This document shows, piece by piece, positions 2,134 through 52,134 of a DNA stretch of 52,390 nucleotides. Position 1 is the stretch's first letter. Each line of letters begins with the position of its first letter. A program made the position numbers and the translations under genes. A model generated the notes under the pieces. That model saw only the letters and a program-made list of their open reading frames with translations. It searched no databases and was not told the origin of the DNA. Source of the stretch: a virus (lineage: Duplodnaviria > Caudoviricetes); IMG/VR virus record IMGVR_UViG_3300027970_000038, positions 1 to 52,390 of that record. One strand, written 5' to 3'.

Positions 2134-3087
2134 ATGGCATATGCACAATTTGGATCAATACAGGCTTCTGACTTCAACACATTAGTTGGCGCAAACACCT
2201 CAACGACATCAGGTCAACTAAACGCGGTTTGGGCAGTCGGCGGCGGCTCCGGTGGATATGGACAGACTGCGATAGCTAACGTTGCTGCTGGACAAACAGT
2301 TGCTTCGACCACTCAATGGACTTCGCTCGTAGCTAACACTGCATCTGCGGCAACTCATCAAGGTTCTTCTATAACCTCTGTTACTGCTCCCAGTACCGGA
2401 GCTACAGTCACATATGTATCGGCTATTCCTACTAACTTGACCACGATCTACAACGGTAGATTAAATGCTGCTACTCAAGGAAGTACTTCTTCGAACACAG
2501 TAACATATGGTTCTACTTGGTCGCAATTGTTGACATTTACTCATACTGCGACCTTTGCAAATGGTGATGCAGCACGTTATTTCTTTAATTCGGGTGGACA
2601 GATCAAGATGACCGTCGCTCATCCAAATGGTACTGGCATCAATCTTCTTCTCAATAACCTGTGTTCTAACGTAGGTACAGTTGCGATGAGTGCGGTTACC
2701 TCAGGTACTCAGACGATCGGCGGTATATCATATAACGGCATCACTAAAATTGGCGGCGGCGGCAACTCTCCTACTATCGATTCAACTAAAGGATATTTCG
2801 GACAGACAGTTTCTAATGCTAACGTATTCACTCAGTTAGCATCCACTGGTCCTTCGGGCTATCTAAGTACCTTCATTCGTTTTATAACCAAATCAAACGG
2901 TACACAGGGTGGTAACGGCGATGCTGGATCAGTCATTACGATCTATACTGTATGGGACGAAGTACCAAATGGACTCACTGCTTCGATAGGGTCTGCTACT
3001 ACCATGACTCTTGTTCCGCCGGAATCAACTAACATTTCTAATACTTGGGGTACAGTAAATCTAACCGGAACTGCTTCGGGGCTATAA
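2134..3087 (+). CDS. Putative virion structural protein
   Basis: 317 aa T/S/G/N-rich with ARYFFNSGG motif, co-oriented with tail genes. Confidence 0.6.
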   Translation: MAYAQFGSIQASDFNTLVGANTSTTSGQLNAVWAVGGGSGGYGQTAIANVAAGQTVASTTQWTSLVANTASAATHQGSSITSVTAPSTGATVTYVSAIPTNLTTIYNGRLNAATQGSTSSNTVTYGSTWSQLLTFTHTATFANGDAARYFFNSGGQIKMTVAHPNGTGINLLLNNLCSNVGTVAMSAVTSGTQTIGGISYNGITKIGGGGNSPTIDSTKGYFGQTVSNANVFTQLASTGPSGYLSTFIRFITKSNGTQGGNGDAGSVITIYTVWDEVPNGLTASIGSATTMTLVPPESTNISNTWGTVNLTGTASGL

Positions 3088-3136
3088 CTTTTTTAATCGG
3101 TAACGGGTATCCATCTAAATACTTCGTAAAGAGGAT

Positions 3137-6464: not shown

Positions 6465-8047
6465 TGGAAGTCGTGAAAAAGTCAGTAAACAAAGTTGTCT
6501 GGACTAGAAATGGCGGCGGCGATATAATCTCGAACAAAGAAAATGTAGATAAGGTAAAAAATCTATTAAATGAGACTGGGTGCGGGTTTTGCTTGGCTAA
6601 GTTCACCCAGGTAACCATGCATCTGGGAACAGGACTTGTTCACTCATGTCACCATCCTAAGGCACATGCTATTCCACTAACAGAACTAGAAAACAATCCA
6701 GCCGTGTTGTTTAATACAAGTAAGTTAAAAGAAGCAAGAAAGCAAATGCTTTCAGGCGAGAAACCAAGTGAATGCGATTACTGCTGGCGCGTAGAAGACA
6801 ACGATGGACCTAGCGATAGATATTTTAAAAGCCTTGAGAACTGGGCTTTACCAGAGCATGATATGGTACTCGAAAACGGACACGAGATCGATTATTACCC
6901 TACCTATCTAGAAGTTGACTTCAGTAATGTATGCAACTTTAATTGTATCTACTGTGGCCCTGAATATAGTAGCGTCTGGGTAGAAGACTTGAAAAGAAAC
7001 GGGCCAGTCAAGGTACTAGAAAATACTAAAAAGGTACAATGGATCCAGGGCTGGCAAGACCTAGATTCTATCGCATACAAGAACAGAGAACATAATCCAT
7101 ATCTAGATGCTTTCTGGAAATGGTTCCCTGAAGCATACAAGAGACTTAAGTTCTATCGTATCACGGGCGGGGAACCTCTACTGAGCAAGGAAACATTTAG
7201 AAGCATTGACTGGTTGATTCAGAACCCTAATATTGAATTAGATTTCAGCATCAATAGTAATATGGGTGTTCCCGACAAGCTGTGGTATTCATTCTTAGAT
7301 AAGATAAAAGTACTAGCGAACGGAAACTACGTCAAGAAGTTTACATTATTCACGAGCGTTGACGCCTGGGGAGAAAAGGCAGAATATCTAAGGCCGGGAC
7401 TAGACTTTGAGTTGTTTAAAAAACGATATGAAGAAGTATTGAACATCGGGGGTGTACGATGCGTGATCATGTGTACGTTCAACCTATTGAGCATCACGAG
7501 TATACAACAACTATTAGAATGGCAATCCGAATTACGCAGCAAGTATAACATTGATCGGGAACTGCTTCGTTTAGAAAAGCAATTCGACATCAACATCGGC
7601 GGAGAACTATCTCATGTAGAAAGAGAAAAGATGTCAGGAAATCATTTTTCTTTAGTGGGAATCGATATTCCGTATCTTAGACATCCGCAATGTTTGGACG
7701 CGCAGTTTTCGGATAAAAATTTGATCGAACAATACTTACTGCCTGCAATCAATTCAATGGCAAAAAATTCAGGAAATTCTATCTGGGGAGTCCATCAAGG
7801 ATTTGAACCATATGAGATTGAAAAGATGAAAAGAATCGTGTTTGATGTGATGCACTTCAATTCAACGCACGATGATAACAATTCAGTTGTAGTTGAAGGA
7901 AGAGCAAAGTTTTATGATTTTGTCAATGAGATGGATAAAAGACATAAAAAGAATTTCTTGGATGTTTTCCCCGAGTTTACCTCATTCTACGAGAAATGCA
8001 AGCAAGCTAAAGACATCATCTTAGAAGAAGAACGCACTACGGTATGA
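6458..8047 (+). CDS. Radical SAM protein with N-terminal Cys-rich (twitch-like) domain
   Basis: CNFNCIYC (CxxxCxxC), ITGGEPLL, N-terminal FC..SCHH..ECDYCW. Confidence 0.85.
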   Translation: MVMEVVKKSVNKVVWTRNGGGDIISNKENVDKVKNLLNETGCGFCLAKFTQVTMHLGTGLVHSCHHPKAHAIPLTELENNPAVLFNTSKLKEARKQMLSGEKPSECDYCWRVEDNDGPSDRYFKSLENWALPEHDMVLENGHEIDYYPTYLEVDFSNVCNFNCIYCGPEYSSVWVEDLKRNGPVKVLENTKKVQWIQGWQDLDSIAYKNREHNPYLDAFWKWFPEAYKRLKFYRITGGEPLLSKETFRSIDWLIQNPNIELDFSINSNMGVPDKLWYSFLDKIKVLANGNYVKKFTLFTSVDAWGEKAEYLRPGLDFELFKKRYEEVLNIGGVRCVIMCTFNLLSITSIQQLLEWQSELRSKYNIDRELLRLEKQFDINIGGELSHVEREKMSGNHFSLVGIDIPYLRHPQCLDAQFSDKNLIEQYLLPAINSMAKNSGNSIWGVHQGFEPYEIEKMKRIVFDVMHFNSTHDDNNSVVVEGRAKFYDFVNEMDKRHKKNFLDVFPEFTSFYEKCKQAKDIILEEERTTV

Positions 8048-17467: not shown

Positions 17468-17542
17468 ATGATAAACAAATACAATACCGAAAATGAAGTC
17501 CCATTCGGCTGGGTTAAAGGAAGAAGATCAAATTTTGGGTAA
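17468..17542 (+). pseudogene. Possible homing-endonuclease C-terminal remnant
   Basis: 24-codon ORF ending VPFGWVKGR, a tail motif of phage free-standing endonucleases. Confidence 0.35.
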
Positions 17543-17550
17543 TATGTAAA

Positions 17551-17581
17551 TTGACACTATTATACATTTAATGTATAAATA
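17551..17581 (+). promoter_or_regulatory. Combined sigma70-like/late promoter of tmRNA
   Basis: TTGACA-17 nt-TATAAA, where the -10 is also a full TATAAATA late box. Confidence 0.65.
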
Positions 17582-17586
17582 TAAAT

Positions 17587-17930
17587 GTAATTGATGACCG
17601 AGTTAATAGTTGTACAAGACCCGAACTGCGATGTTCGGCGCCTCCACCACAAGCACATTATTCCAGCCCGCAAGGATGGAAACTCGCGAGCCCTTTACTA
17701 GGTAACAAGTAGGACAGATATGCGAGCCTACTTAATGTGTTTCTGATGGGGGCGAATTAGTATCGATTGGCGACGAAAAGACAAGCGAGATTTCCGGTAA
17801 GACACGACCGTCAATTAGTTCAAAAAACTAAATGCTAACGACAATGATAGCATCATGGACATGCGCTTAGCTGCATAACCCCATATGAGTTTTGCTAGTT
17901 GAACTTGGAAACAGAATCAACTAGCGCCCC
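17587..17930 (+). ncRNA. ssrA: Permuted (two-piece) tmRNA
   Basis: Acceptor piece ends ..CCGAAC TGCGAT GTTCGG CGCCTCC ACCA (17649); coding piece starts GGGGGCG (17748), giving a 7-bp stem with G3.U70; tag ORF ANDNDSIMDMRLAA* at 17834-17878; outer ends approximate. Confidence 0.92.
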
Positions 17931-36566: not shown

Positions 36567-37499
36567 ATGAATACTAAAATAGAAGAATTTATCCGAAGGT
36601 CGAAATACCGAAACGCGCATTTATATGATGATACCTTAGGAGAAGGCTATGATTATGTAATTTGCCCTGTTTCCAACGCCCGCATGAGTATGATTAAATC
36701 CTCATATATTGAGCGTATATTGGGAATGACAGTAGAAGAGTATGATGCGAAGTACCCCGGAGTTAAAAAGATAGCGCAAAAAAGAAAAGCTAATATAAGT
36801 GCAGGTCTTAAACAATTAGACCCGGATACCGGAAAAACAAAATACGAATTATCACAAGACAAAGCAAGAGCTAAGTTGGAATCTATTGGCCCAGACGGAC
36901 TTACTGGATACGAGCGCAAAGGTTTACAAACACGCGCAACTCATATGGCTAACATTGATGAATCAGGGCGCAACGGGTACCAGCGTCAAGCCTATAATAG
37001 AGTTACTACTGTTTTAGAAAATGGATTAACCGTAGAACAGAATGCTCATATAAAACTTAGACAAACCCTTTTAAAGCAGGGAATAACCAGAGTAGTAGGC
37101 GCAAGCAGAATATCAAAGAAAATATTGAAACCAATATTATATTACCTAGACGAACACCAAATTAAGTATTATTTTGATAAAACTGAATATGCTATCAACG
37201 ACGGTGAAGGCAACTATTACTATTACGATCTTACTATTCCGAATTTTAATATGGTAATAGAATACCAGTCTAATGCATGGCATGCCGATCCGTGCATTAC
37301 TGAAGATGCATGGAATAAATGGAAAACTCCGAAAGGACCGGTAAGAAATGCGGATCAGGTTTTAGCACGAGATTATAAAAAAGCTAAAGCCATATATGAA
37401 CAGCGGGGGTTCCGTACGTATTTTGTATGGGAAAACACTCAACAACAGGATATAGAAACTTTATTATGTTTGCTGAAAACACTGAATACGAAATATTAA
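36567..37499 (+). mobile_element. Free-standing Vsr/DUF559-like endonuclease between the terL halves
   Basis: YYYDLTI..VIEYQSNAWH..RD..K..GFRTYFVWE nuclease motif; own TAAATA promoter. Confidence 0.75.
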
Positions 37500-38827
37500 C
37501 ACCCTCAGGGTGGAAAGACTTTAAAGGAATAACCTTTTCAGGAAAAAAGACCACGTATAAAATTACTCTAACGAATGGTAAAACAGTTGATGCTACTGAG
37601 GCACATTTCTTTTTTAATGGTAAAAATAAAATACCGGTAAAAGAGTTAAATGTTTCGGACTATATTGATACTGTGGATGGACTTGAACAAATTATCGGCA
37701 TAAACGAACAAGAACAAACTGAAGTATATGATATCATAGAAGTAGAAGATGAACTACATAGATTTTTAGTAAATGACGGTATTATAACAAAAAATTGCGA
37801 TGAATTTGCGTTCGTCCGCCCTTCAATCGCTAAAGAATTTTGGACTTCTATCACACCCACGCTAGCAACTGGTGGTAAGGCGATCATCACATCAACCCCG
37901 AACTCAGACGAAGATCAGTTTGCTCTAATCTGGAAGATGGCTAACAAGACTGAAGATGAGTTTGGCAACACGACAGAAGTAGGGGTCAACGGCTTTAGAG
38001 CATATAGAGCATATTGGCACGAACATCCTGAACGTGATGAGAAGTGGGCAGAACAAATGCGTGCCCAGCTCGGTGATGATCGTTTCAACCGAGAGATAAA
38101 TTGCGAATTTATTATTGCGGACGAGACTCTGATAAATCCAAACACACTGATCATGCTTGAGGGTGTTGAGCCTATCAACCGAATGGGTCAGGTCCGCTGG
38201 TATAAAAAGCCCGAGAAGGGTAGGTTATACGTAGTTGCGCTGGATCCTTCCTTAGGTACCGGAGGCGATCCTGCTGCTATTCAAATATTTGAAGCAAGTA
38301 CTACTACGCAGATAGGTGAGTGGAAGCACAACAAGACTGATATCCCCAGTCAGATTAAGTTACTTGCTGAGATTTGTAAGTACATCGCAGAACAGACTTT
38401 GGAACCAAATAATATATATTACTCAATTGAAAATAATGGTATCGGTCAAGCTGCGATTGTTTCATTGAACGAGTATGGTGAATCAAATATATCCGGTATC
38501 TTTATTAGTGAGCCAGGTAAAGGTAGAAGAGGATTCACTACCACTAACAAACCTAAACTTGCCGCGTGTGCTAAATTCAAAACACTGCTAGAATCAAAGA
38601 AGATGTCTATTCATAGCCGATCACTCATCAGTGAACTTAAAGCGTTTGTAGCTTCTGGTGGAAGCTATGCGGCTAAAGTAGGAGACCATGACGATTTGAT
38701 AATGGCTTCACTATTAGCAGTTAGAATTATGACACAACTAGCGGATTATCACGGTGACTTAGAGAGCCAAATTCGTGACCATGATGACATTATCCTGCCT
38801 TTACCTTTCTTTGCAGTCATTTCTTAA
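37466..38827 (+). CDS. terL: Split intein C-fragment fused to terminase large subunit C-part
   Basis: MFAENT.ILTPSGW, TEAH block B, VYDI, ends ITKN/C (37795/37796) then DEFAF, ITSTPN, LDPS.G.GGD, HDDL. Confidence 0.92.
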   Translation: MFAENTEYEILTPSGWKDFKGITFSGKKTTYKITLTNGKTVDATEAHFFFNGKNKIPVKELNVSDYIDTVDGLEQIIGINEQEQTEVYDIIEVEDELHRFLVNDGIITKNCDEFAFVRPSIAKEFWTSITPTLATGGKAIITSTPNSDEDQFALIWKMANKTEDEFGNTTEVGVNGFRAYRAYWHEHPERDEKWAEQMRAQLGDDRFNREINCEFIIADETLINPNTLIMLEGVEPINRMGQVRWYKKPEKGRLYVVALDPSLGTGGDPAAIQIFEASTTTQIGEWKHNKTDIPSQIKLLAEICKYIAEQTLEPNNIYYSIENNGIGQAAIVSLNEYGESNISGIFISEPGKGRRGFTTTNKPKLAACAKFKTLLESKKMSIHSRSLISELKAFVASGGSYAAKVGDHDDLIMASLLAVRIMTQLADYHGDLESQIRDHDDIILPLPFFAVIS

Positions 38828-48812: not shown

Positions 48813-49331
48813 ATGAATTGGTTAACACTAGTGAAGGGTAGCATTCCTTCACACTCACTAGACATCGCAGAAAATCTCGAAAAGGCAATGACTGACTTGC
48901 AAGGACTAGACGAGATCGATGCACATGGTTGTGCGTTGGCGGCTGCAATTGCTTCGGGCAACGGAGGCCTAGCAGAAGAAATCGCAATGAATAGTCCGTT
49001 GTTCGGGACGCAGGAACGTGAAGCAGCAAAAACAGCAGCGTCACTCACTGCGATAGATGATGTGTATAGTATCTATCTATGGTATGCGGATAAGGAGCAA
49101 TTGGATCTGACTCTATCTAATTTTTCGTATGATGGACACGAAACAAATGGAGGAATCACTCCAAAACAGTATGGAATGTATGTGTTTGCATCAACGTTGG
49201 TTTATAAGAATTCAGTCAATATCGGAAGGATGATCAATACATTGAGGGCTGAAGGGGTAACTGACAGTCAGATTCAAGCAATCGCAAAGATCGCAGCAGT
49301 TATGTACGCAATCAATAGAATCATTCTTTAG
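48813..49331 (+). CDS. AhpD/CMD-like protein lacking CxxC
   Basis: IP..DI..NL, GCALAAAIA, EAAKTAASL, LRAEGVT..QIQ..KIAAV match AhpD; catalytic CxxC absent. Confidence 0.7.
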   Translation: MNWLTLVKGSIPSHSLDIAENLEKAMTDLQGLDEIDAHGCALAAAIASGNGGLAEEIAMNSPLFGTQEREAAKTAASLTAIDDVYSIYLWYADKEQLDLTLSNFSYDGHETNGGITPKQYGMYVFASTLVYKNSVNIGRMINTLRAEGVTDSQIQAIAKIAAVMYAINRIIL

Positions 49332-49881
49332 TTCCGATTATCATAAATCTCTTATATCCCCAATCACCGTAGTTTATCTCTTTTGTTTCCGAGAAATAAG
49401 ATGGTGCAAGGGGATATTTTTTTGTCAGTTCTTCTAACGATTGATTAGGGTTGACGCATTTCCAGATACTGTCATCTTTGATGGTTACATCACTTGATTG
49501 GATGCAAACAAGTGTTCCTATAGCTAAATTATCGAACCAATCATTAGATTTCATGTGTTCCGGAGAACAATTTATCACCACCTGATAACTGGATAAATCA
49601 TAGGTACCTGCATCTGCTACGACATTAATTACCTTTGCATCGGTTCCGATTCTCCAAGCATCAGTTATGTGATCTGATACCATGACCGCATCTTCATCAA
49701 TATCTATTCCTAAAATCTCTTGATATTGGTCACTATTTCGAGCGAGAAGCATGAAAGCCAGTACGTTATACCAGCTTCCTAAGATAGCTACCCTAGCGTT
49801 AGCAGGAAGGTGTGGTTCGAGTTCTTTGCAGAGCCAAACCTTAGACTGAATCTGTCCGTGGGAGAATGCGGTGAAGTCCAT
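49321..49881 (-). CDS. Class I SAM-methyltransferase-like protein
   Basis: HGQIQSKVWL, ILGSWY, GIDID, INCSPEHM; start at ATG 5 nt after TAAATA. Confidence 0.65.
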   Translation of the reverse strand: MDFTAFSHGQIQSKVWLCKELEPHLPANARVAILGSWYNVLAFMLLARNSDQYQEILGIDIDEDAVMVSDHITDAWRIGTDAKVINVVADAGTYDLSSYQVVINCSPEHMKSNDWFDNLAIGTLVCIQSSDVTIKDDSIWKCVNPNQSLEELTKKYPLAPSYFSETKEINYGDWGYKRFMIIGTKE

Positions 49882-49907
49882 AAAGTTATTTATAAGTGAT
49901 TTAAGGC

Positions 49908-49936
49908 TTGACATATAAATAACCCGGTGCTATATT
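49908..49936 (+). promoter_or_regulatory. sigma70-like early promoter
   Basis: TTGACA-17 nt-TATATT preceded by TGC. Confidence 0.7.
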
Positions 49937-49967
49937 GAATTATAGATTGAAACGAAGAAAGAAACAA

Positions 49968-50081
49968 ATGCCTAATCCAGTTGCTAAACATGCTTACAAG
50001 TTTAACATTGCGAAGGCTTATATCCCTAAAAAGGGCAAGGGCTCTTACAACCGCAAGCAAGAAAAAAATCAGACTCACTAA
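49968..50081 (+). CDS. ArfA-like basic peptide (37 aa)
   Basis: MPNPVAKHAYKFNIAKAYIPKKGKGSYNRKQEKNQTH; KKGKGSYxRK is the ArfA signature; below ORF-track cutoff. Confidence 0.6.
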   Translation: MPNPVAKHAYKFNIAKAYIPKKGKGSYNRKQEKNQTH

Positions 50082-50130
50082 AAAAAACAAGCTTAAATAA
50101 AGCTTTGGAGATTTAGGGATAAATAAAAGT

Positions 50131-50271
50131 ATGAACACTAACACTTGTAAAATATCGCTGCAACAGCACATGCTCTGGGGAAGAAAAACCTCAACGGAAT
50201 CGGTTGCGGACGTATATCCAACAAGCATTCGCGGCGCCTTTAATCTATTAAAGGATCCAGGAAACAGGTAA
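50131..50271 (+). CDS. 46-aa leader-like peptide upstream of tRNA operon
   Basis: TAAATA-N5-ATG; followed by intrinsic terminator. Confidence 0.45.
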   Translation: MNTNTCKISLQQHMLWGRKTSTESVADVYPTSIRGAFNLLKDPGNR

Positions 50272-50295
50272 ACATAGATACATTTGTTTATTTTG

Positions 50296-50331
50296 ACCCT
50301 GGGATTCGCAAGATTCTCAGGGTTTTTTGTT
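50296..50331 (+). terminator. Intrinsic terminator/attenuator
   Basis: ACCCTGGGA..GCAA..TCTCAGGGT plus TTTTTGTT. Confidence 0.75.
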
Positions 50332-50621
50332 ACAAAAGTGCAAGTCGGAACGAGGCTGCAAAGCACTATAAAAAAAGAACGGGCGGTGATAGGGATGAAA
50401 TCTGCGGAGAGAACGCAGAGAGTAAAAACTTTCAGTGAGGAACATTGTGATTCCTCGCAAGCGGGCAAGTCCGAAATGCCGGACAACATAGTCTCGCTTG
50501 TCAACAAAAGGCTAACCTATATCAAACTTTAAACATAGTGTATATCGCCAGAAGGTCGGCTTTTATCTGACCACCGGGTGCTAGAAAGACACACATTTTG
50601 ATATGAATGGGAGGATTGTGC

Positions 50622-50695
50622 TGGGGGATAGCACAATTTGGTAGTGCGTCGGTTTTTGGTACCGAAGGTTCTAGGTTCGAGCCCTAGTCCCCCAG
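50622..50695 (+). tRNA. tRNA-Gln(TTG), no encoded CCA
   Basis: TGGGGGA/TCCCCCA acceptor, TCGGT-TTTTGGT-ACCGA anticodon arm, GGTTCGAGCC T-loop. Confidence 0.85.
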
Positions 50696-50720
50696 CACAA
50701 TCCTCTCGGTACCATAAAAG

Positions 50721-50796
50721 GCCGCCTTAACTCAGTTGGTAGAGTATCTGTCTAGTAATCAGAATGTCGGCGGTTCGATTCCGTCAGGCGGCACCA
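50721..50796 (+). tRNA. tRNA-Thr(AGT)
   Basis: GCCGCCT/AGGCGGC ACCA, anticodon loop CT-AGT-AA, canonical D and T arms. Confidence 0.85.
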
Positions 50797-50810
50797 TTAC
50801 TCATTATAAT

Positions 50811-50889
50811 GCATCTGTATGCCGCCTGTCTTCGAAACAGGAGAAAGCTAATTGGATACATGTAGGTTCGAGTCCTACCAGATGCGCCA
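50811..50889 (+). tRNA. Atypical D-arm-less tRNA-Arg(TCG)-like RNA
   Basis: GCATCTG/CAGATGC GCCA, CCTGT-CTTCGAA-ACAGG, GTAGG-TTCGAGT-CCTAC; only 7 nt where the D arm should be, 20 nt in the variable region. Confidence 0.75.
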
Positions 50890-50907
50890 ATCTTTATTAT
50901 TCTTTAT

Positions 50908-50992
50908 GGGCACGAGGCTCTACGGTGGAGCAACTGACTTTTAATCAGTCGAGATTTATCTCAAGTGGGTTCGACTCCCACCGTGCCCTCCA
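50908..50992 (+). tRNA. Atypical tRNA-Lys(TTT) with long variable arm
   Basis: GGGCACG/CGTGCCC TCCA, ACTGA-CTTTTAA-TCAGT, variable hairpin GAGA-TTTA-TCTC. Confidence 0.8.
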
Positions 50993-51004
50993 CCTATTTT
51001 GAAT

Positions 51005-51054
51005 TCCTTTTAACAAATTGTTAAAAGGAGGTTCAAATCCTTCTATCTGCACCA
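51005..51054 (+). pseudogene. tRNA 3'-half remnant fused to a hairpin
   Basis: GGAGG-TTCAAAT-CCTTC TATCTGC ACCA without a matching 5' half; upstream TCCTTTTAACAA/TTGTTAAAAGGA palindrome. Confidence 0.6.
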
Positions 51055-51059
51055 ACAAC

Positions 51060-51134
51060 GGGTCTATAGTTCATTGGTAGAACGCTGTCCTGACTCGACA
51101 GAGGTGGAAGGTTCAATTCCTTCTAGACCCACCA
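51060..51134 (+). tRNA. tRNA-Val(GAC)
   Basis: GGGTCTA/TAGACCC ACCA, CTGTC-CTGACTC-GACAG. Confidence 0.85.
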
Positions 51135-51251
51135 AAGTTTATGGGGCCGTCTTGTATGTCTATATTCCAAAAATAGAAGTAACCAAGAGAAAAATACGGT
51201 CCCGCTAATTAAACGATGTCAAAAATAATTCTCAAGCAGGCAACTTTTTGG

Positions 51252-51280
51252 TTGACATTATTCCTGTTATGTCGTACATT
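51252..51280 (+). promoter_or_regulatory. sigma70-like promoter inside tRNA region
   Basis: TTGACA-17 nt-TACATT. Confidence 0.6.
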
Positions 51281-51313
51281 GAGAATATAGAGAGTGACAA
51301 AAGAAGTTCTCTC

Positions 51314-51324
51314 GTTCTTTGACA
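51314..51324 (+). promoter_or_regulatory. boxA-like antitermination site
   Basis: GTTCTTTGACA resembles rrn boxA (TGCTCTTTAACA), about 30 nt after the promoter and right after a GAGAG/CTCTC hairpin. Confidence 0.5.
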
Positions 51325-51350
51325 TCGTTAGAAAATAATAAGTCTCTTGC

Positions 51351-51576
51351 GAGACTTATTAGATGAATGCTACGTTGAGCCACCCAAAGGCTCATAACCG
51401 TACAAAGGTTTTTGTGGGTTCAATTCCCACGTGCGGGGTTTGGGAACGTAGTATTCTTCTAATAAGTATCGTGTGAGACTTATTAGATGAACATTCTGAG
51501 CCGCAAGTTTTGATGCTTGAGGAATGCAGACAGTAGAGATGAGCGATCTACCGGAATGTTCTTCTAATAAGTATCG
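51351..51576 (+). repeat. Two tandem cassettes with identical complementary flanking arms
   Basis: GAGACTTATTAGATGAA (51351, 51475) ... TTCTTCTAATAAGTATCG (51454, 51559) around different inserts. Confidence 0.85.
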
Positions 51577-51767
51577 TATGGTCTGGTGTTCTTAGAAAGG
51601 GAGTTCCTGCTAAGTGGCGAACTCTTTTGCTCTGACCAGCAACGGAGAGGATAGGTCAGTATCCTAGGGAAGTGCAATTCTTCCAAGCATTAACAATAAG
51701 GGTCGCAATCAGCCGAACCAATGATTGTGTGATTGAAGGTAATATGGTTCCTTCTTCCGAATGTTAC

Positions 51768-51843
51768 GCCGAAATAGCTGATGTGGTCTTAGCGCCTGAT
51801 TGAAGCTCAGGAGATGCTCGTTCGATCCGGGCTTTCGGCACCA
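51768..51843 (+). tRNA. tRNA-Phe(GAA)
   Basis: GCCGAAA/TTTCGGC ACCA, CCTGA-TTGAAGC-TCAGG. Confidence 0.9.
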
Positions 51844-51878
51844 AGAATAACCCTTACTGTTACAGTAAGGTAAAGAAT

Positions 51879-51961
51879 GCGAGTATGGCGAAATTGGTAG
51901 ACGCACTAGTTTTAGGTACTAGCGGGCAACCGTGGGGGTTCGAGTCCCTCTACTCGCACCA
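51879..51961 (+). tRNA. tRNA-Leu(TAG)
   Basis: GCGAGTA/TACTCGC ACCA, CTAGT-TTTAGGT-ACTAG, variable arm. Confidence 0.92.
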
Positions 51962-52049
51962 ACCATAAGCAGTACCGTCTGCTGAACCAATATCGGATTG
52001 AGATTAAGTTCTCTTGGTGGGTATTGAAAACAAAACGGTTCAATTTATT

Positions 52050-52134
52050 GCCCCGATGGTGGAATCGGTAGACGCGGAAGATTCAAAATCTTTTGCCGCA
52101 AGGCGTGGGGGTTCAAGTCCCTCTCGGGGCACCA
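52050..52134 (+). tRNA. tRNA-Leu(CAA)
   Basis: GCCCCGA/TCGGGGC ACCA, GAAGA-TTCAAAA-TCTTT, variable arm. Confidence 0.92.

What the first reader, a model, noticed from the sequence alone, without database searches (positions are those of the whole stretch)
49908..50081. Unannotated 37-aa ArfA-like peptide: a second ribosome-rescue route
Seen: strong TTGACA-17-TATATT promoter drives MPNPVAKH...KKGKGSYNRK. Established: KKGKGSYxRK is the ArfA segment that enters the empty mRNA channel and helps recruit RF2; bacterial arfA is normally kept low by tmRNA tagging of a non-stop transcript. Here the ORF has its own stop right after the motif. Inference: a constitutively active early rescue factor, or an mRNA-channel blocker, that complements the phage tmRNA.
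Basis: partly seen in the sequence, partly recalled or inferred. Interest (0 to 1): 0.7.

Follow-up and report, generated by a model that had tools for sequence, protein, structure and literature searches.

The report
Phage mini-ArfA ribosome-rescue homologue
A 37-residue gene in a lake-water jumbo phage is a real, conserved, stripped-down relative of the bacterial ribosome-rescue factor ArfA; it belongs to a large group of similar phage genes that databases already label ArfA but that nobody has tested.

Summary
A TTGACA-17-TATATT promoter (49908-49936) precedes a 37-codon ORF (49968-50081) encoding MPNPVAKHAYKFNIAKAYIPKKGKGSYNRKQEKNQTH. The stop lies 7 codons after the motif, not directly after it.

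The gene is under purifying selection (dN/dS 0.04-0.17). It belongs to a family of 32-58-aa phage proteins, each with its own stop codon (43 IMG/VR loci).

Pfam ArfA scores 23.2 bits, below the 25.5 cut-off, and covers the motif only. Profile comparison gives 96.7% to gammaproteobacterial ArfA (residues 14-36) and 97.7%, nearly full length, to chromosomal short ArfA of SAR11, which passes the cut-off. The N-terminal half also resembles DUF7230, so the family bridges the two.

It differs from E. coli-type ArfA: no first ~11 residues, no KH motif, no hydrophobic tail, no non-stop hairpin.

This is not new as a kind. IMG names the closest relative ArfA, a GenBank note does so for an Ochrobactrum jumbo phage, and a 2025 paper does so for pelagiphage HTVC027P gp30.

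Most likely it is an unregulated ArfA-type factor that binds the empty mRNA channel. RF2 recruitment is inferred, not shown. The same phage carries a permuted tmRNA (17531-17925).

The parts
49908..49936 (+). Sigma-70-type promoter: TTGACA, 17 nt, TATATT, with TGn extended -10
   Evidence: 11 of 12 consensus positions. One of 4 such sites where 0.17 are expected. Conserved in L004 and L005.
49968..50081 (+). CDS of the 37-aa ArfA-like protein, stop TAA included
   Evidence: Translation. dN/dS 0.04-0.17. Family of 43 viral loci. Pfam ArfA E 4.8e-5, PHROG 1359 E 3e-5.
49974..49988 (+). Codons for N3-K7 (NPVAK), the conserved N-terminal motif
   Evidence: N3, P4 and A6 are invariant in A1. The motif aligns to N-x-[FLI]-A-K of SAR11 ArfA. 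Through that alignment it maps to N14-A18 of enterobacterial ArfA. It is shared with DUF7230.
50028..50057 (+). Codons for K21-K30 (KKGKGSYNRK), the ArfA mRNA-channel motif
   Evidence: K22 is invariant and G23 K24 G25 S26 Y27 R29 are at least 90% conserved in A1. The same columns are invariant or nearly invariant in bacterial ArfA. Aligned.
50131..50271 (+). 46-aa ORF between the ArfA-like gene and the terminator; unknown whether real
   Evidence: Listed. No Pfam family. The sequence here is not conserved in L004 or L005.
50295..50329 (+). Intrinsic-terminator-like hairpin plus U-run; probable 3' end of the transcription unit
   Evidence: dG -19.7 kcal/mol, z -4.57, 0 of 200 shuffles fold as well. 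The simple terminator scan did not call it.
17531..17925 (+). Context: phage-encoded permuted (two-piece, alpha-type) tmRNA
   Evidence: Rfam RF04321 101.9 bits, RF01849 96.6 bits. A weaker copy lies in the 92%-complete relative G273 (44.8 bits).
50622..52134 (+). Context: tRNA gene cluster starting about 540 nt downstream
   Evidence: 7 tRNAs by ARAGORN, 8 by Rfam. The gene sits in the same position upstream of a tRNA cluster in L004 and L005.

Best explanation
The ORF encodes a minimal phage homologue of the alternative ribosome-rescue factor ArfA. It corresponds to about residues 12-49 of the enterobacterial protein.

Shown:
- It is a conserved, selected protein-coding gene behind a consensus-like promoter.
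- It ends with an ordinary stop.
- It carries the ArfA KKGKGSYxRK segment.
- It is collinear over nearly its whole length with chromosomal short ArfA proteins of SAR11.

Inferred:
- The basic C-terminal half binds the vacant mRNA entry channel of ribosomes stalled at the 3' end of truncated mRNAs.
- The N-terminal half (NPVAK...F, then a short strand before KKG) recruits host RF2 to hydrolyse the peptidyl-tRNA.
- The mRNA has a stop codon, no hairpin and no hydrophobic tail, so the protein would escape the trans-translation feedback that keeps E. coli ArfA low.
- It would be made whenever the host-type promoter fires.
- Its likely use is to free ribosomes trapped on degraded host or phage mRNAs during infection, beside the phage's own tmRNA.
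- Host RF2 and SmpB would be needed; none is encoded in the relatives searched.
For: - The motif columns conserved in the phage family are the ArfA invariants.
- Pfam ArfA is the best family, E 4.8e-5. 31 of 33 family members hit it at E<=0.01.
- The six best PDB hits of the family profile are ArfA chains, E 0.003-0.006.
- hhalign gives 96.7%, E 4.7e-10 to 26 gammaproteobacterial ArfAs over window residues 14-36.
- hhalign gives 97.7%, E 1.6e-12 over 38 columns to SAR11 ArfA.
- SAR11 ArfA passes the Pfam cut-off at 27.8-31.8 bits and aligns 98.0% to gammaproteobacterial ArfA.
- 0 of 19,998 shuffles reach the observed score.
- ESM Atlas: the nearest clusters are 39-43-aa 'ArfA domain-containing' proteins, score 0.91, 25 of 30 hits.
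- By the alignment, the C-terminus reaches ArfA position 49. The review PMC8012679 says 46-48 residues are ordered on the ribosome (passages).
- Selection and promoter conservation.
- Precedents: HTVC027P gp30 (NPVAK...KKGRGSFKR) is called ArfA and is highly expressed early and late (PMC12753301, passages). phiOC_p093 carries a GenBank note naming ArfA.
- A tmRNA lies in the same genome.
Against: - The Pfam score of 23.2 is below the 25.5 cut-off and covers only profile positions 28-43. NCBIfam finds nothing.
- Direct comparison with gammaproteobacterial ArfA does not align residues 1-13. The N-terminal link rests on SAR11 intermediates and on short, lysine-rich profiles.
- The column of A18, whose A18T change blocks RF2 activation, holds Lys. 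The column of F25 holds Asn, with Phe one place earlier.
- The nearly invariant G9 region and the KH motif (review; K44 H45 in the enterobacterial sequence) are absent.
- The N-terminal half fits DUF7230, a family of unknown function, as well as or better than ArfA.
- A constitutive ArfA would compete with the phage's own tmRNA-SmpB for the same channel.
- The host is unknown, so RF2 compatibility cannot be judged.
- No expression or binding data exist for this gene.
Confidence: 0.55

Rival explanations
1. An ArfA-derived ribosome binder that does not activate RF2. It occupies the empty mRNA channel and acts as a blocker or competitor, for example against host SmpB-tmRNA, ArfA or ArfB, or it parks ribosomes.
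For: - Only the channel-binding half aligns directly with gammaproteobacterial ArfA.
- The A18 and F25 columns, the G9 region and the KH motif are not kept.
- ArfA(A18T) still binds and recruits RF2 but does not activate it (PMC8012679), so binding and activation are separable.
- Some relatives drop the GKGS loop altogether: HMO-2011 ORF, CRP-1, DUF7230.
Against: - SAR11 chromosomal ArfA, which passes the Pfam cut-off, also has Lys at the A18 column, so that residue is not universal.
- A blocker would also hinder the phage's own tmRNA.
- The NPVAK motif is conserved across phage and SAR11 proteins, which argues that the N-terminal half has a partner.
Confidence: 0.2
2. A small basic nucleic-acid-binding or otherwise unrelated phage peptide of the DUF7230 / PHROG 1359 kind. 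Its KKGKGSY stretch would be convergent or a captured fragment, and its function would have nothing to do with ribosome rescue.
For: - PHROG 1359 (unknown function) matches residues 1-31, E 3e-5.
- hhalign to a DUF7230-type set gives 97.7% over 37 columns, while that set against bacterial ArfA gives only 1.8%.
- The sequences are short and lysine-rich, which inflates profile scores.
- XacN1 and Xoo-sp13 homologues lack the motif.
Against: - The ten-residue motif matches every column that is conserved in ArfA, and it is at least 90% conserved across a divergent phage family.
- Shuffles never reach the score.
- There is a graded series from SAR11 ArfA through HTVC027P gp30 to the window protein.
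- Some DUF7230 members in bacteria keep a Y-x-R-x-x-KH stretch and a hydrophobic tail like ArfA.
Confidence: 0.1
3. Not a gene: a chance ORF in the leader of a promoter that really serves downstream RNAs (the tRNA cluster).
For: - A weak Shine-Dalgarno sequence in the window (GAAAGAAAC).
- tRNA genes follow in three related contigs.
- RNA-labelled contigs were found only downstream of the terminator.
Against: - dN/dS 0.04-0.17 with saturated synonymous sites.
- 43 viral loci keep the frame and the motif in unrelated contexts without tRNAs.
- Relatives have clearer SD sequences (GGGAG in L004).
- A strong terminator hairpin separates the ORF from the tRNAs.
Confidence: 0.03

Closest known systems
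Enterobacterial / gammaproteobacterial ArfA (Pfam PF03889; PDB 5U4I, 5MDV, 5MGP, 5H5U)
   Same: The KKGKGSYxRK segment and the preceding short strand region. hhalign 96.7% over window residues 14-36 against ArfA 26-48. The window protein covers the part that is ordered on the ribosome.
   Different: - 37 aa against 50-91 aa.
- Lacks the first ~11 residues with the conserved G9, the KH motif and the hydrophobic tail.
- Has an ordinary stop and no hairpin, so no non-stop/tmRNA control.
- The A18 and F25 columns are not kept.
- Below the Pfam cut-off.
Chromosomal short ArfA of Pelagibacteraceae (SAR11), e.g. the 42-aa protein of L113
   Same: - Short, own stop codon, N-x-x-A-K ... KPKKGKGSYNRKK.
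- hhalign 97.7% over 38 columns.
- The tail after the motif is about as short as the window's.
   Different: - A cellular housekeeping locus, flanked by DapB, Nth, PfkB, YkuD.
- Passes the Pfam ArfA cut-off.
- One residue longer between N and KKG, and Tyr at the F25 column.
- The window protein has the DUF7230-like AKHAYKFN stretch instead.
Phage proteins already called ArfA: pelagiphage HTVC027P gp30 (58 aa), Ochrobactrum jumbo phage vB_OspM_OC phiOC_p093 (65 aa), IMG product name of P0012 (36 aa)
   Same: - Same NPVAK ... KKG[KR]GS[YF] architecture.
- BLASTP E 4e-6 and 2e-5 for the pair comparisons.
- P0012 belongs to the 90%-identity cluster whose representative (P0005) is 81% identical to the window protein.
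   Different: - gp30 has a 25-residue N-terminal extension.
- phiOC_p093 keeps an LLFRRKR stretch and a hydrophobic C-terminal tail like bacterial ArfA.
- None has been tested biochemically, as far as my searches show.
DUF7230 (PF23876): XacN1 ORF023, Xoo-sp13_17, and small proteins in 6 of 300 sampled genomes of the class that holds Shewanella
   Same: N-terminal M-x-NPVAK-x-A-x-KFN-x-A, similar length, conserved Y-x-R. hhalign 97.7% over 37 columns.
   Different: - DUF7230 has RDRK-x-DYKR in place of KKGKGSYNRK.
- The window protein scores only 16.1 bits against a cut-off of 27.
- Function unknown, and no paper mentions the family.
BrfA (Bacillus) and ArfT (Francisella)
   Same: Small basic proteins that bind the empty mRNA channel and recruit release factors. 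They are analogues in mechanism (PMC8012679).
   Different: No sequence relation was tested or claimed here. The review considers them independently evolved.

Membership tests
ArfA (PF03889) | Score at or above Pfam's gathering cut-off (25.5 bits) over the 44-position profile | tested here: not met
   23.2 bits, E 4.8e-5, profile positions 28-43 only. Bona fide gammaproteobacterial ArfAs score 52-91 bits over positions 1-44. Relatives L017, phiOC_p093 and SAR11 proteins pass at 26.9-31.8 bits.
ArfA (PF03889) | Invariant K-G-K-G-[SA]-[YF]-x-R motif that lies in the mRNA entry channel | tested here: met
   K22 G23 K24 G25 S26 Y27 N28 R29. The same columns are invariant or nearly invariant in 26 bacterial ArfAs and at least 90% conserved in the phage family.
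ArfA (PF03889) | N-terminal RF2-contact region collinear with ArfA residues 14-30 (helix 15-24, A18, F25, strand Q27-E30) | tested here: inconclusive
   Direct hhalign reaches back only to ArfA residue 26. Via SAR11 ArfA the alignment is full length, with N3 at N14, K7 at A18, and N13 at F25 with F12 adjacent. The roles of these residues come from PMC8012679.
ArfA (PF03889) | KH motif after the KGKGSY segment | tested here: not met
   The window has E32 K33 where the enterobacterial ArfA of L059 has K44 H45. The motif's role is described in PMC8012679.
ArfA (E. coli-type regulation) | Made from a non-stop mRNA (hairpin / RNase III site inside the ORF, hydrophobic C-terminal tail) and repressed by trans-translation | tested here: not met
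   In-frame TAA at 50079-50081. No significant structure in 49943-50135, z -1.29. No hydrophobic tail. The terminator hairpin lies about 215 nt past the stop.
ArfA (function) | Binds non-stop 70S complexes and triggers RF2-dependent peptidyl-tRNA hydrolysis | not testable with these tools
   Needs biochemistry, genetics or cryo-EM.
DUF7230 (PF23876) | Score at or above the gathering cut-off (27 bits) | tested here: not met
   16.1 bits, E 0.013, residues 3-31. XacN1 and Xoo-sp13 homologues score 49.7-52.2 bits. The close subfamily member L012 scores 32 bits.
PHROG 1359 (unknown function) | Profile match over most of the 39-position model (no curated cut-off) | tested here: met
   E 3e-5, 25.3 bits, residues 1-31 against profile positions 1-30 of 39.

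The most novel reading that the evidence does not exclude
The window protein and its relatives form a continuous series. It links canonical ArfA, the short stop-bearing ArfA of SAR11, the phage mini-ArfAs, and DUF7230. If so, DUF7230 (in XacN1-type jumbo phages and some Gammaproteobacteria) would be a cryptic branch of ArfA-like ribosome-channel factors that has lost the GKGS loop. Unregulated mini-ArfAs would then be a widespread phage tool for handling non-stop ribosomes during takeover, including in hosts such as Alphaproteobacteria, where a published survey found no arfA.
Probability: 0.3. Interest if true: 0.65.

Novelty: new member of a known kind. Interest (0 to 1): 0.45.

Why it matters
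In the textbook picture, ArfA is a back-up factor that trans-translation keeps low. Here a phage carries both a tmRNA and an ArfA-like gene that lacks that control. The same stripped-down form recurs in dozens of phage contigs and in SAR11 chromosomes.

If the peptide is active, it would be one of the smallest release-factor recruiters known. It would also be a handy minimal model for how ArfA senses an empty mRNA channel. And it would show that phages manage stalled ribosomes by two routes.

If it binds without activating RF2, it would be a natural inhibitor of ribosome rescue.

Either outcome is directly testable with a synthetic 37-mer. The link to DUF7230 would give a first functional lead for that family.

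Tried and rejected
- Complex prediction of RF2_ECOLI with the family alignment returned 'no answer' (score 0.00). This is no evidence either way.
- phmmer of the single peptide against PDB found nothing. NCBIfam found nothing.
- megablast of 49300-50600 against phages found no match.
The 48-aa TTG reading found no candidate.
I used the 48-aa reading and a 55-aa member instead.
- tblastn of a SAR11 ArfA against phages found no match.

**Expression**
- RNA-labelled runs X20 and X19 hold contigs only at 50332-50514 and at a tRNA, with no cover of the ORF. This is not evidence for or against expression.

**Host**
- The nearest terminase relatives infect Salicola, Sinorhizobium, Agrobacterium and Pseudomonas.
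- A peroxiredoxin's nearest pattern hits are Alkanindiges and a Lysobacterales MAG.
- The tmRNA is alpha-type.
- These do not agree, so the host is left open.

**Other rejected ideas**
- No phage-encoded RF-1-domain protein or SmpB was found in G000, G273 (92% complete) or G274.
- The A1 profile was found in 1 of 5 jumbo phages searched, only vB_OspM_OC.
- Co-transcription with the tRNA cluster is made unlikely by the terminator.
- ArfT as a relative was considered. The paper read (PMC6514570, passages) places ArfT in a different repeat family. I did not test this.

**Rows left out**
- A1 holds 25 of the 30 distinct proteins from the 43 loci. I omitted L014, L022, L038, L039 and L045. Four had GTG starts as my script picked them (L014, L022, L038, L045 resemble rows that I kept); L039 differs from the kept L043 only in the residues before KKINP.
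- A2 holds 26 of 33 extracted bacterial ArfAs. The 7 near-duplicates omitted are L067, L069, L070, L074, L082, L085 and L087.
- A4 lacks L097 and L098, because my motif filter did not pick them.

**Ascertainment**
- The viral scan used the pattern KGKGSYNR among others, so relatives without the motif are under-sampled.

Full report
**1. What is in the sequence**

The window is an IMG/VR virus record of 52,390 bases. CheckV estimates it at 14% complete, so it is a fragment of a jumbo phage. Its G+C content is 39-43%. It encodes:
- a T4-type large terminase whose nearest isolates are jumbo phages of Salicola, Sinorhizobium, Agrobacterium and Pseudomonas;
- a permuted tmRNA at 17531-17925;
- a tRNA cluster from 50622.

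Public runs that hold the stretch are lake-water and other freshwater metagenomes.

At the finding's coordinates the elements are as follows.
- **Promoter.** TTGACA, 17 nt, TATATT, with TG before the -10 box (49908-49936), matching 11 of 12 consensus positions. It is one of four such sites on the + strand, where shuffles give a mean of 0.17.
- **ORF.** A 37-codon ORF runs from ATG 49968 to TAA 50081 and encodes MPNPVAKHAYKFNIAKAYIPKKGKGSYNRKQEKNQTH.
- **Stop.** It lies seven codons after KKGKGSYNRK, not directly after it.
- **Downstream.** A 46-aa ORF of unknown standing lies at 50131-50271. A strong terminator-like hairpin with a U-run follows at 50295-50329 (z -4.57).

The unit therefore looks like a short, self-contained transcript rather than the leader of the tRNA cluster.

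**2. It is a real gene**

- The promoter and ORF are conserved in two related phage contigs, L004 and L005; L005 lies on a 333-kb, 92%-complete record. Sequence diverges immediately after the stop.
- Over the first 31 codons dN/dS is 0.08 against L004 and 0.17 against L005.
- In more distant pairs synonymous sites are saturated while the protein is kept.
- A scan of IMG/VR gave 43 loci encoding relatives. All are 32-58 aa and end in their own stop.
- An exhaustive phmmer over 1.84 billion representatives found 7 proteins at E<=0.001.
- In the alignment of 33 family members, N3, P4, A6 and K22 are invariant. G23 K24 G25 S26 Y27 R29 are at least 90% conserved.

**3. Relation to ArfA**

*Direct tests*
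- Pfam ArfA is the best family, at E 4.8e-5. The score of 23.2 bits is under the 25.5 cut-off, and only profile positions 28-43 of 44 align.
- 31 of 33 family members hit ArfA at E<=0.01.
- The family profile's six best PDB hits are all ArfA chains (E 0.003-0.006). Chance-level chromodomain hits follow.
- I collected ArfA from genomes of the order that holds Shewanella. 34 of 121 genomes had a match above the cut-off, at 52-91 bits.
- I aligned 26 of these. hhalign of the phage family against this set gives 96.7%, E 4.7e-10, over window residues 14-36 and ArfA residues 26-48.
- No composition-preserving shuffle of the peptide (0 of 19,998 scored) reaches its score against that profile.
- An independent language-model search puts it next to clusters of 39-43-aa 'ArfA domain-containing' proteins.

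*The N-terminal half*

This half does not align directly with gammaproteobacterial ArfA, but a bridge exists.
- Five Pelagibacteraceae genomes carry a syntenic chromosomal gene among DapB, Nth, PfkB, YkuD and YggS.
- It encodes a short ArfA with its own stop. This protein passes the Pfam cut-off at 27.8-31.8 bits.
- It aligns 98.0% with gammaproteobacterial ArfA over 35 ungapped columns.
- It aligns 97.7% with the phage family over 38 columns, nearly the whole window protein.

Through this chain:
- window N3 corresponds to ArfA N14;
- K7 corresponds to A18;
- N13 corresponds to F25, with F12 adjacent;
- the C-terminus corresponds to about residue 49.

The review PMC8012679 (passages read) states the following:
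- 46-48 residues of ArfA are ordered on the ribosome;
- ArfA(1-40) is inactive;
- Q27-E30 add a strand to RF2;
- F25 makes hydrophobic contacts;
- A18T blocks activation;
- a KH motif sits in a pocket of the channel.

The window protein therefore spans the ordered core. It lacks the first ~11 residues, which include the nearly invariant G9. It also lacks the KH motif and the hydrophobic, regulatory tail.

**4. Relation to DUF7230**

- The N-terminal half (NPVAKxAxKFN) is that of Pfam DUF7230.
- XacN1 ORF023 and Xoo-sp13_17, the only tblastn hits among isolated phages, score about 50 bits for DUF7230. They have RDRKNDYKR where the window has KKGKGSYNRK.
- hhalign of a DUF7230-type set against the phage family gives 97.7% over 37 columns. 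Against gammaproteobacterial ArfA it gives only 1.8%.
- One caveat: two of the eight rows in that set (L030 and the HMO-2011 ORF) were found through ArfA-like queries.
- The subfamily member L012 passes the DUF7230 cut-off (32 bits) and nearly passes ArfA (24.9 bits).
- Some bacterial DUF7230 proteins keep a KH motif and a hydrophobic tail.
- The family thus sits between the two Pfam families. No paper mentions DUF7230.

**5. What is already known**

- JGI/IMG names the closest relative, and the marine subfamily, 'stalled ribosome alternative rescue factor ArfA'.
- GenBank carries a note 'putative ... ArfA' on phiOC_p093 of the Ochrobactrum jumbo phage. The accompanying paper does not mention it (0 occurrences).
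- PMC12753301 (passages) annotates pelagiphage HTVC027P gp30 as ArfA and reports high expression early and late. I fetched gp30, and it has the same NPVAK...KKGRGSFKR architecture.
- Searches for phage ArfA literature found no functional study.
- The survey in PMC11633108 (Table 1) lists arfA in 0 of 2,376 Alphaproteobacteria. It used nucleotide profiles. The SAR11 genes found here show that short ArfA homologues exist in that class.

**6. Mechanism**

The best-supported reading is an unregulated, minimal ArfA-type factor.
- *Shown:* gene, promoter, stop codon, motif, collinearity.
- *Inferred:* binding of the empty mRNA channel, recruitment of host RF2, and escape from tmRNA control.

The 92%-complete relative encodes no RF-1-domain protein and no SmpB, so host factors would be needed.

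The main rival is an ArfA-derived channel binder that does not activate RF2. It is favoured by the changed A18 and F25 columns, but it sits awkwardly beside the phage's own tmRNA.

A structure-based test of RF2 binding gave no answer. RNA-labelled contigs do not cover the ORF.

**7. Verdict**

Homology to ArfA's ribosome-binding core is solid. Formal Pfam membership is not met. Function is untested.
- The gene is a new, divergent member of an already labelled but uncharacterised group of phage mini-ArfAs.

Noticed in passing
window 50332-50514: Contigs from two RNA-labelled runs (one metatranscriptome; one only guessed to be RNA) cover this stretch with 0-1 mismatches. The stretch starts right after the terminator and lies before the tRNA cluster. 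It folds moderately (z -2.06), has no Rfam family, and overlaps a 45-aa ORF (50395-50532) with no Pfam hit. It may be a small RNA or a small gene.
   Followed up: partly
window 40728, 45609, 47642, 49908 (+ strand): Four TTGACA-N17-TATATT sites, three of them with TGCTATATT. This looks like a repeated host-type (probably early) promoter of this phage; 0.17 are expected by chance.
   Followed up: partly
L112, L113, L115, L116, L117 (Pelagibacteraceae genomes), about 2956-3129: A syntenic chromosomal gene for a short (about 37-48 aa) ArfA with its own stop codon, above the Pfam cut-off. A published survey lists arfA in 0 of 2,376 Alphaproteobacteria.
   Followed up: partly
L100 1201-1335 (Puniceispirillum phage HMO-2011, record 1290-1424): An unannotated ORF with the family's N-terminal half but DKTKYNRKK in place of KKGKGSYNRKK. 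It scores 25.5 bits for DUF7230, under the cut-off of 27. Roseobacter phage CRP-1 has a similar stretch in another frame than, and partly overlapping, the annotated gp04.
   Followed up: partly
L094, L095 (two genomes of the class sample): DUF7230 proteins of 53-55 aa with a KH motif and a hydrophobic C-terminal tail. They are reminiscent of the regulated tail of E. coli-type ArfA.
   Followed up: no
window 50071-50130: In a groundwater metagenome (run X14) a related contig replaces these 58 bases, just past the ORF's end, with 323 other bases. L004 and L005 also diverge right after the stop, so the region downstream of the gene is a variable spot.
   Followed up: no
window 49321-49914 (- strand): A divergent 197-aa gene whose ATG (49912-49914) overlaps the -35 hexamer. 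Its only relative among isolated phages is a hypothetical protein of Ralstonia jumbo phage RsoM2USA (30% identity). No Pfam family.
   Followed up: partly
window 37427-38827: The large terminase shows a weak intein-splicing hit (22.6 bits, under the cut-off of 35.8). It matches Salicola phage SCTP-2 in two pieces, and other relatives align only from residue ~124. The N-terminal part may be interrupted or divergent.
   Followed up: no
window 50811-50886: An eighth tRNA-like element, called by Rfam only (40.7 bits) and not by ARAGORN.
   Followed up: no
L089 and L090 (Xanthomonas phage XacN1, records 7569-7673 and 326364-326468): The DUF7230 gene occurs twice in XacN1 with identical sequence, presumably in a long repeat of the genome.
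   Followed up: no
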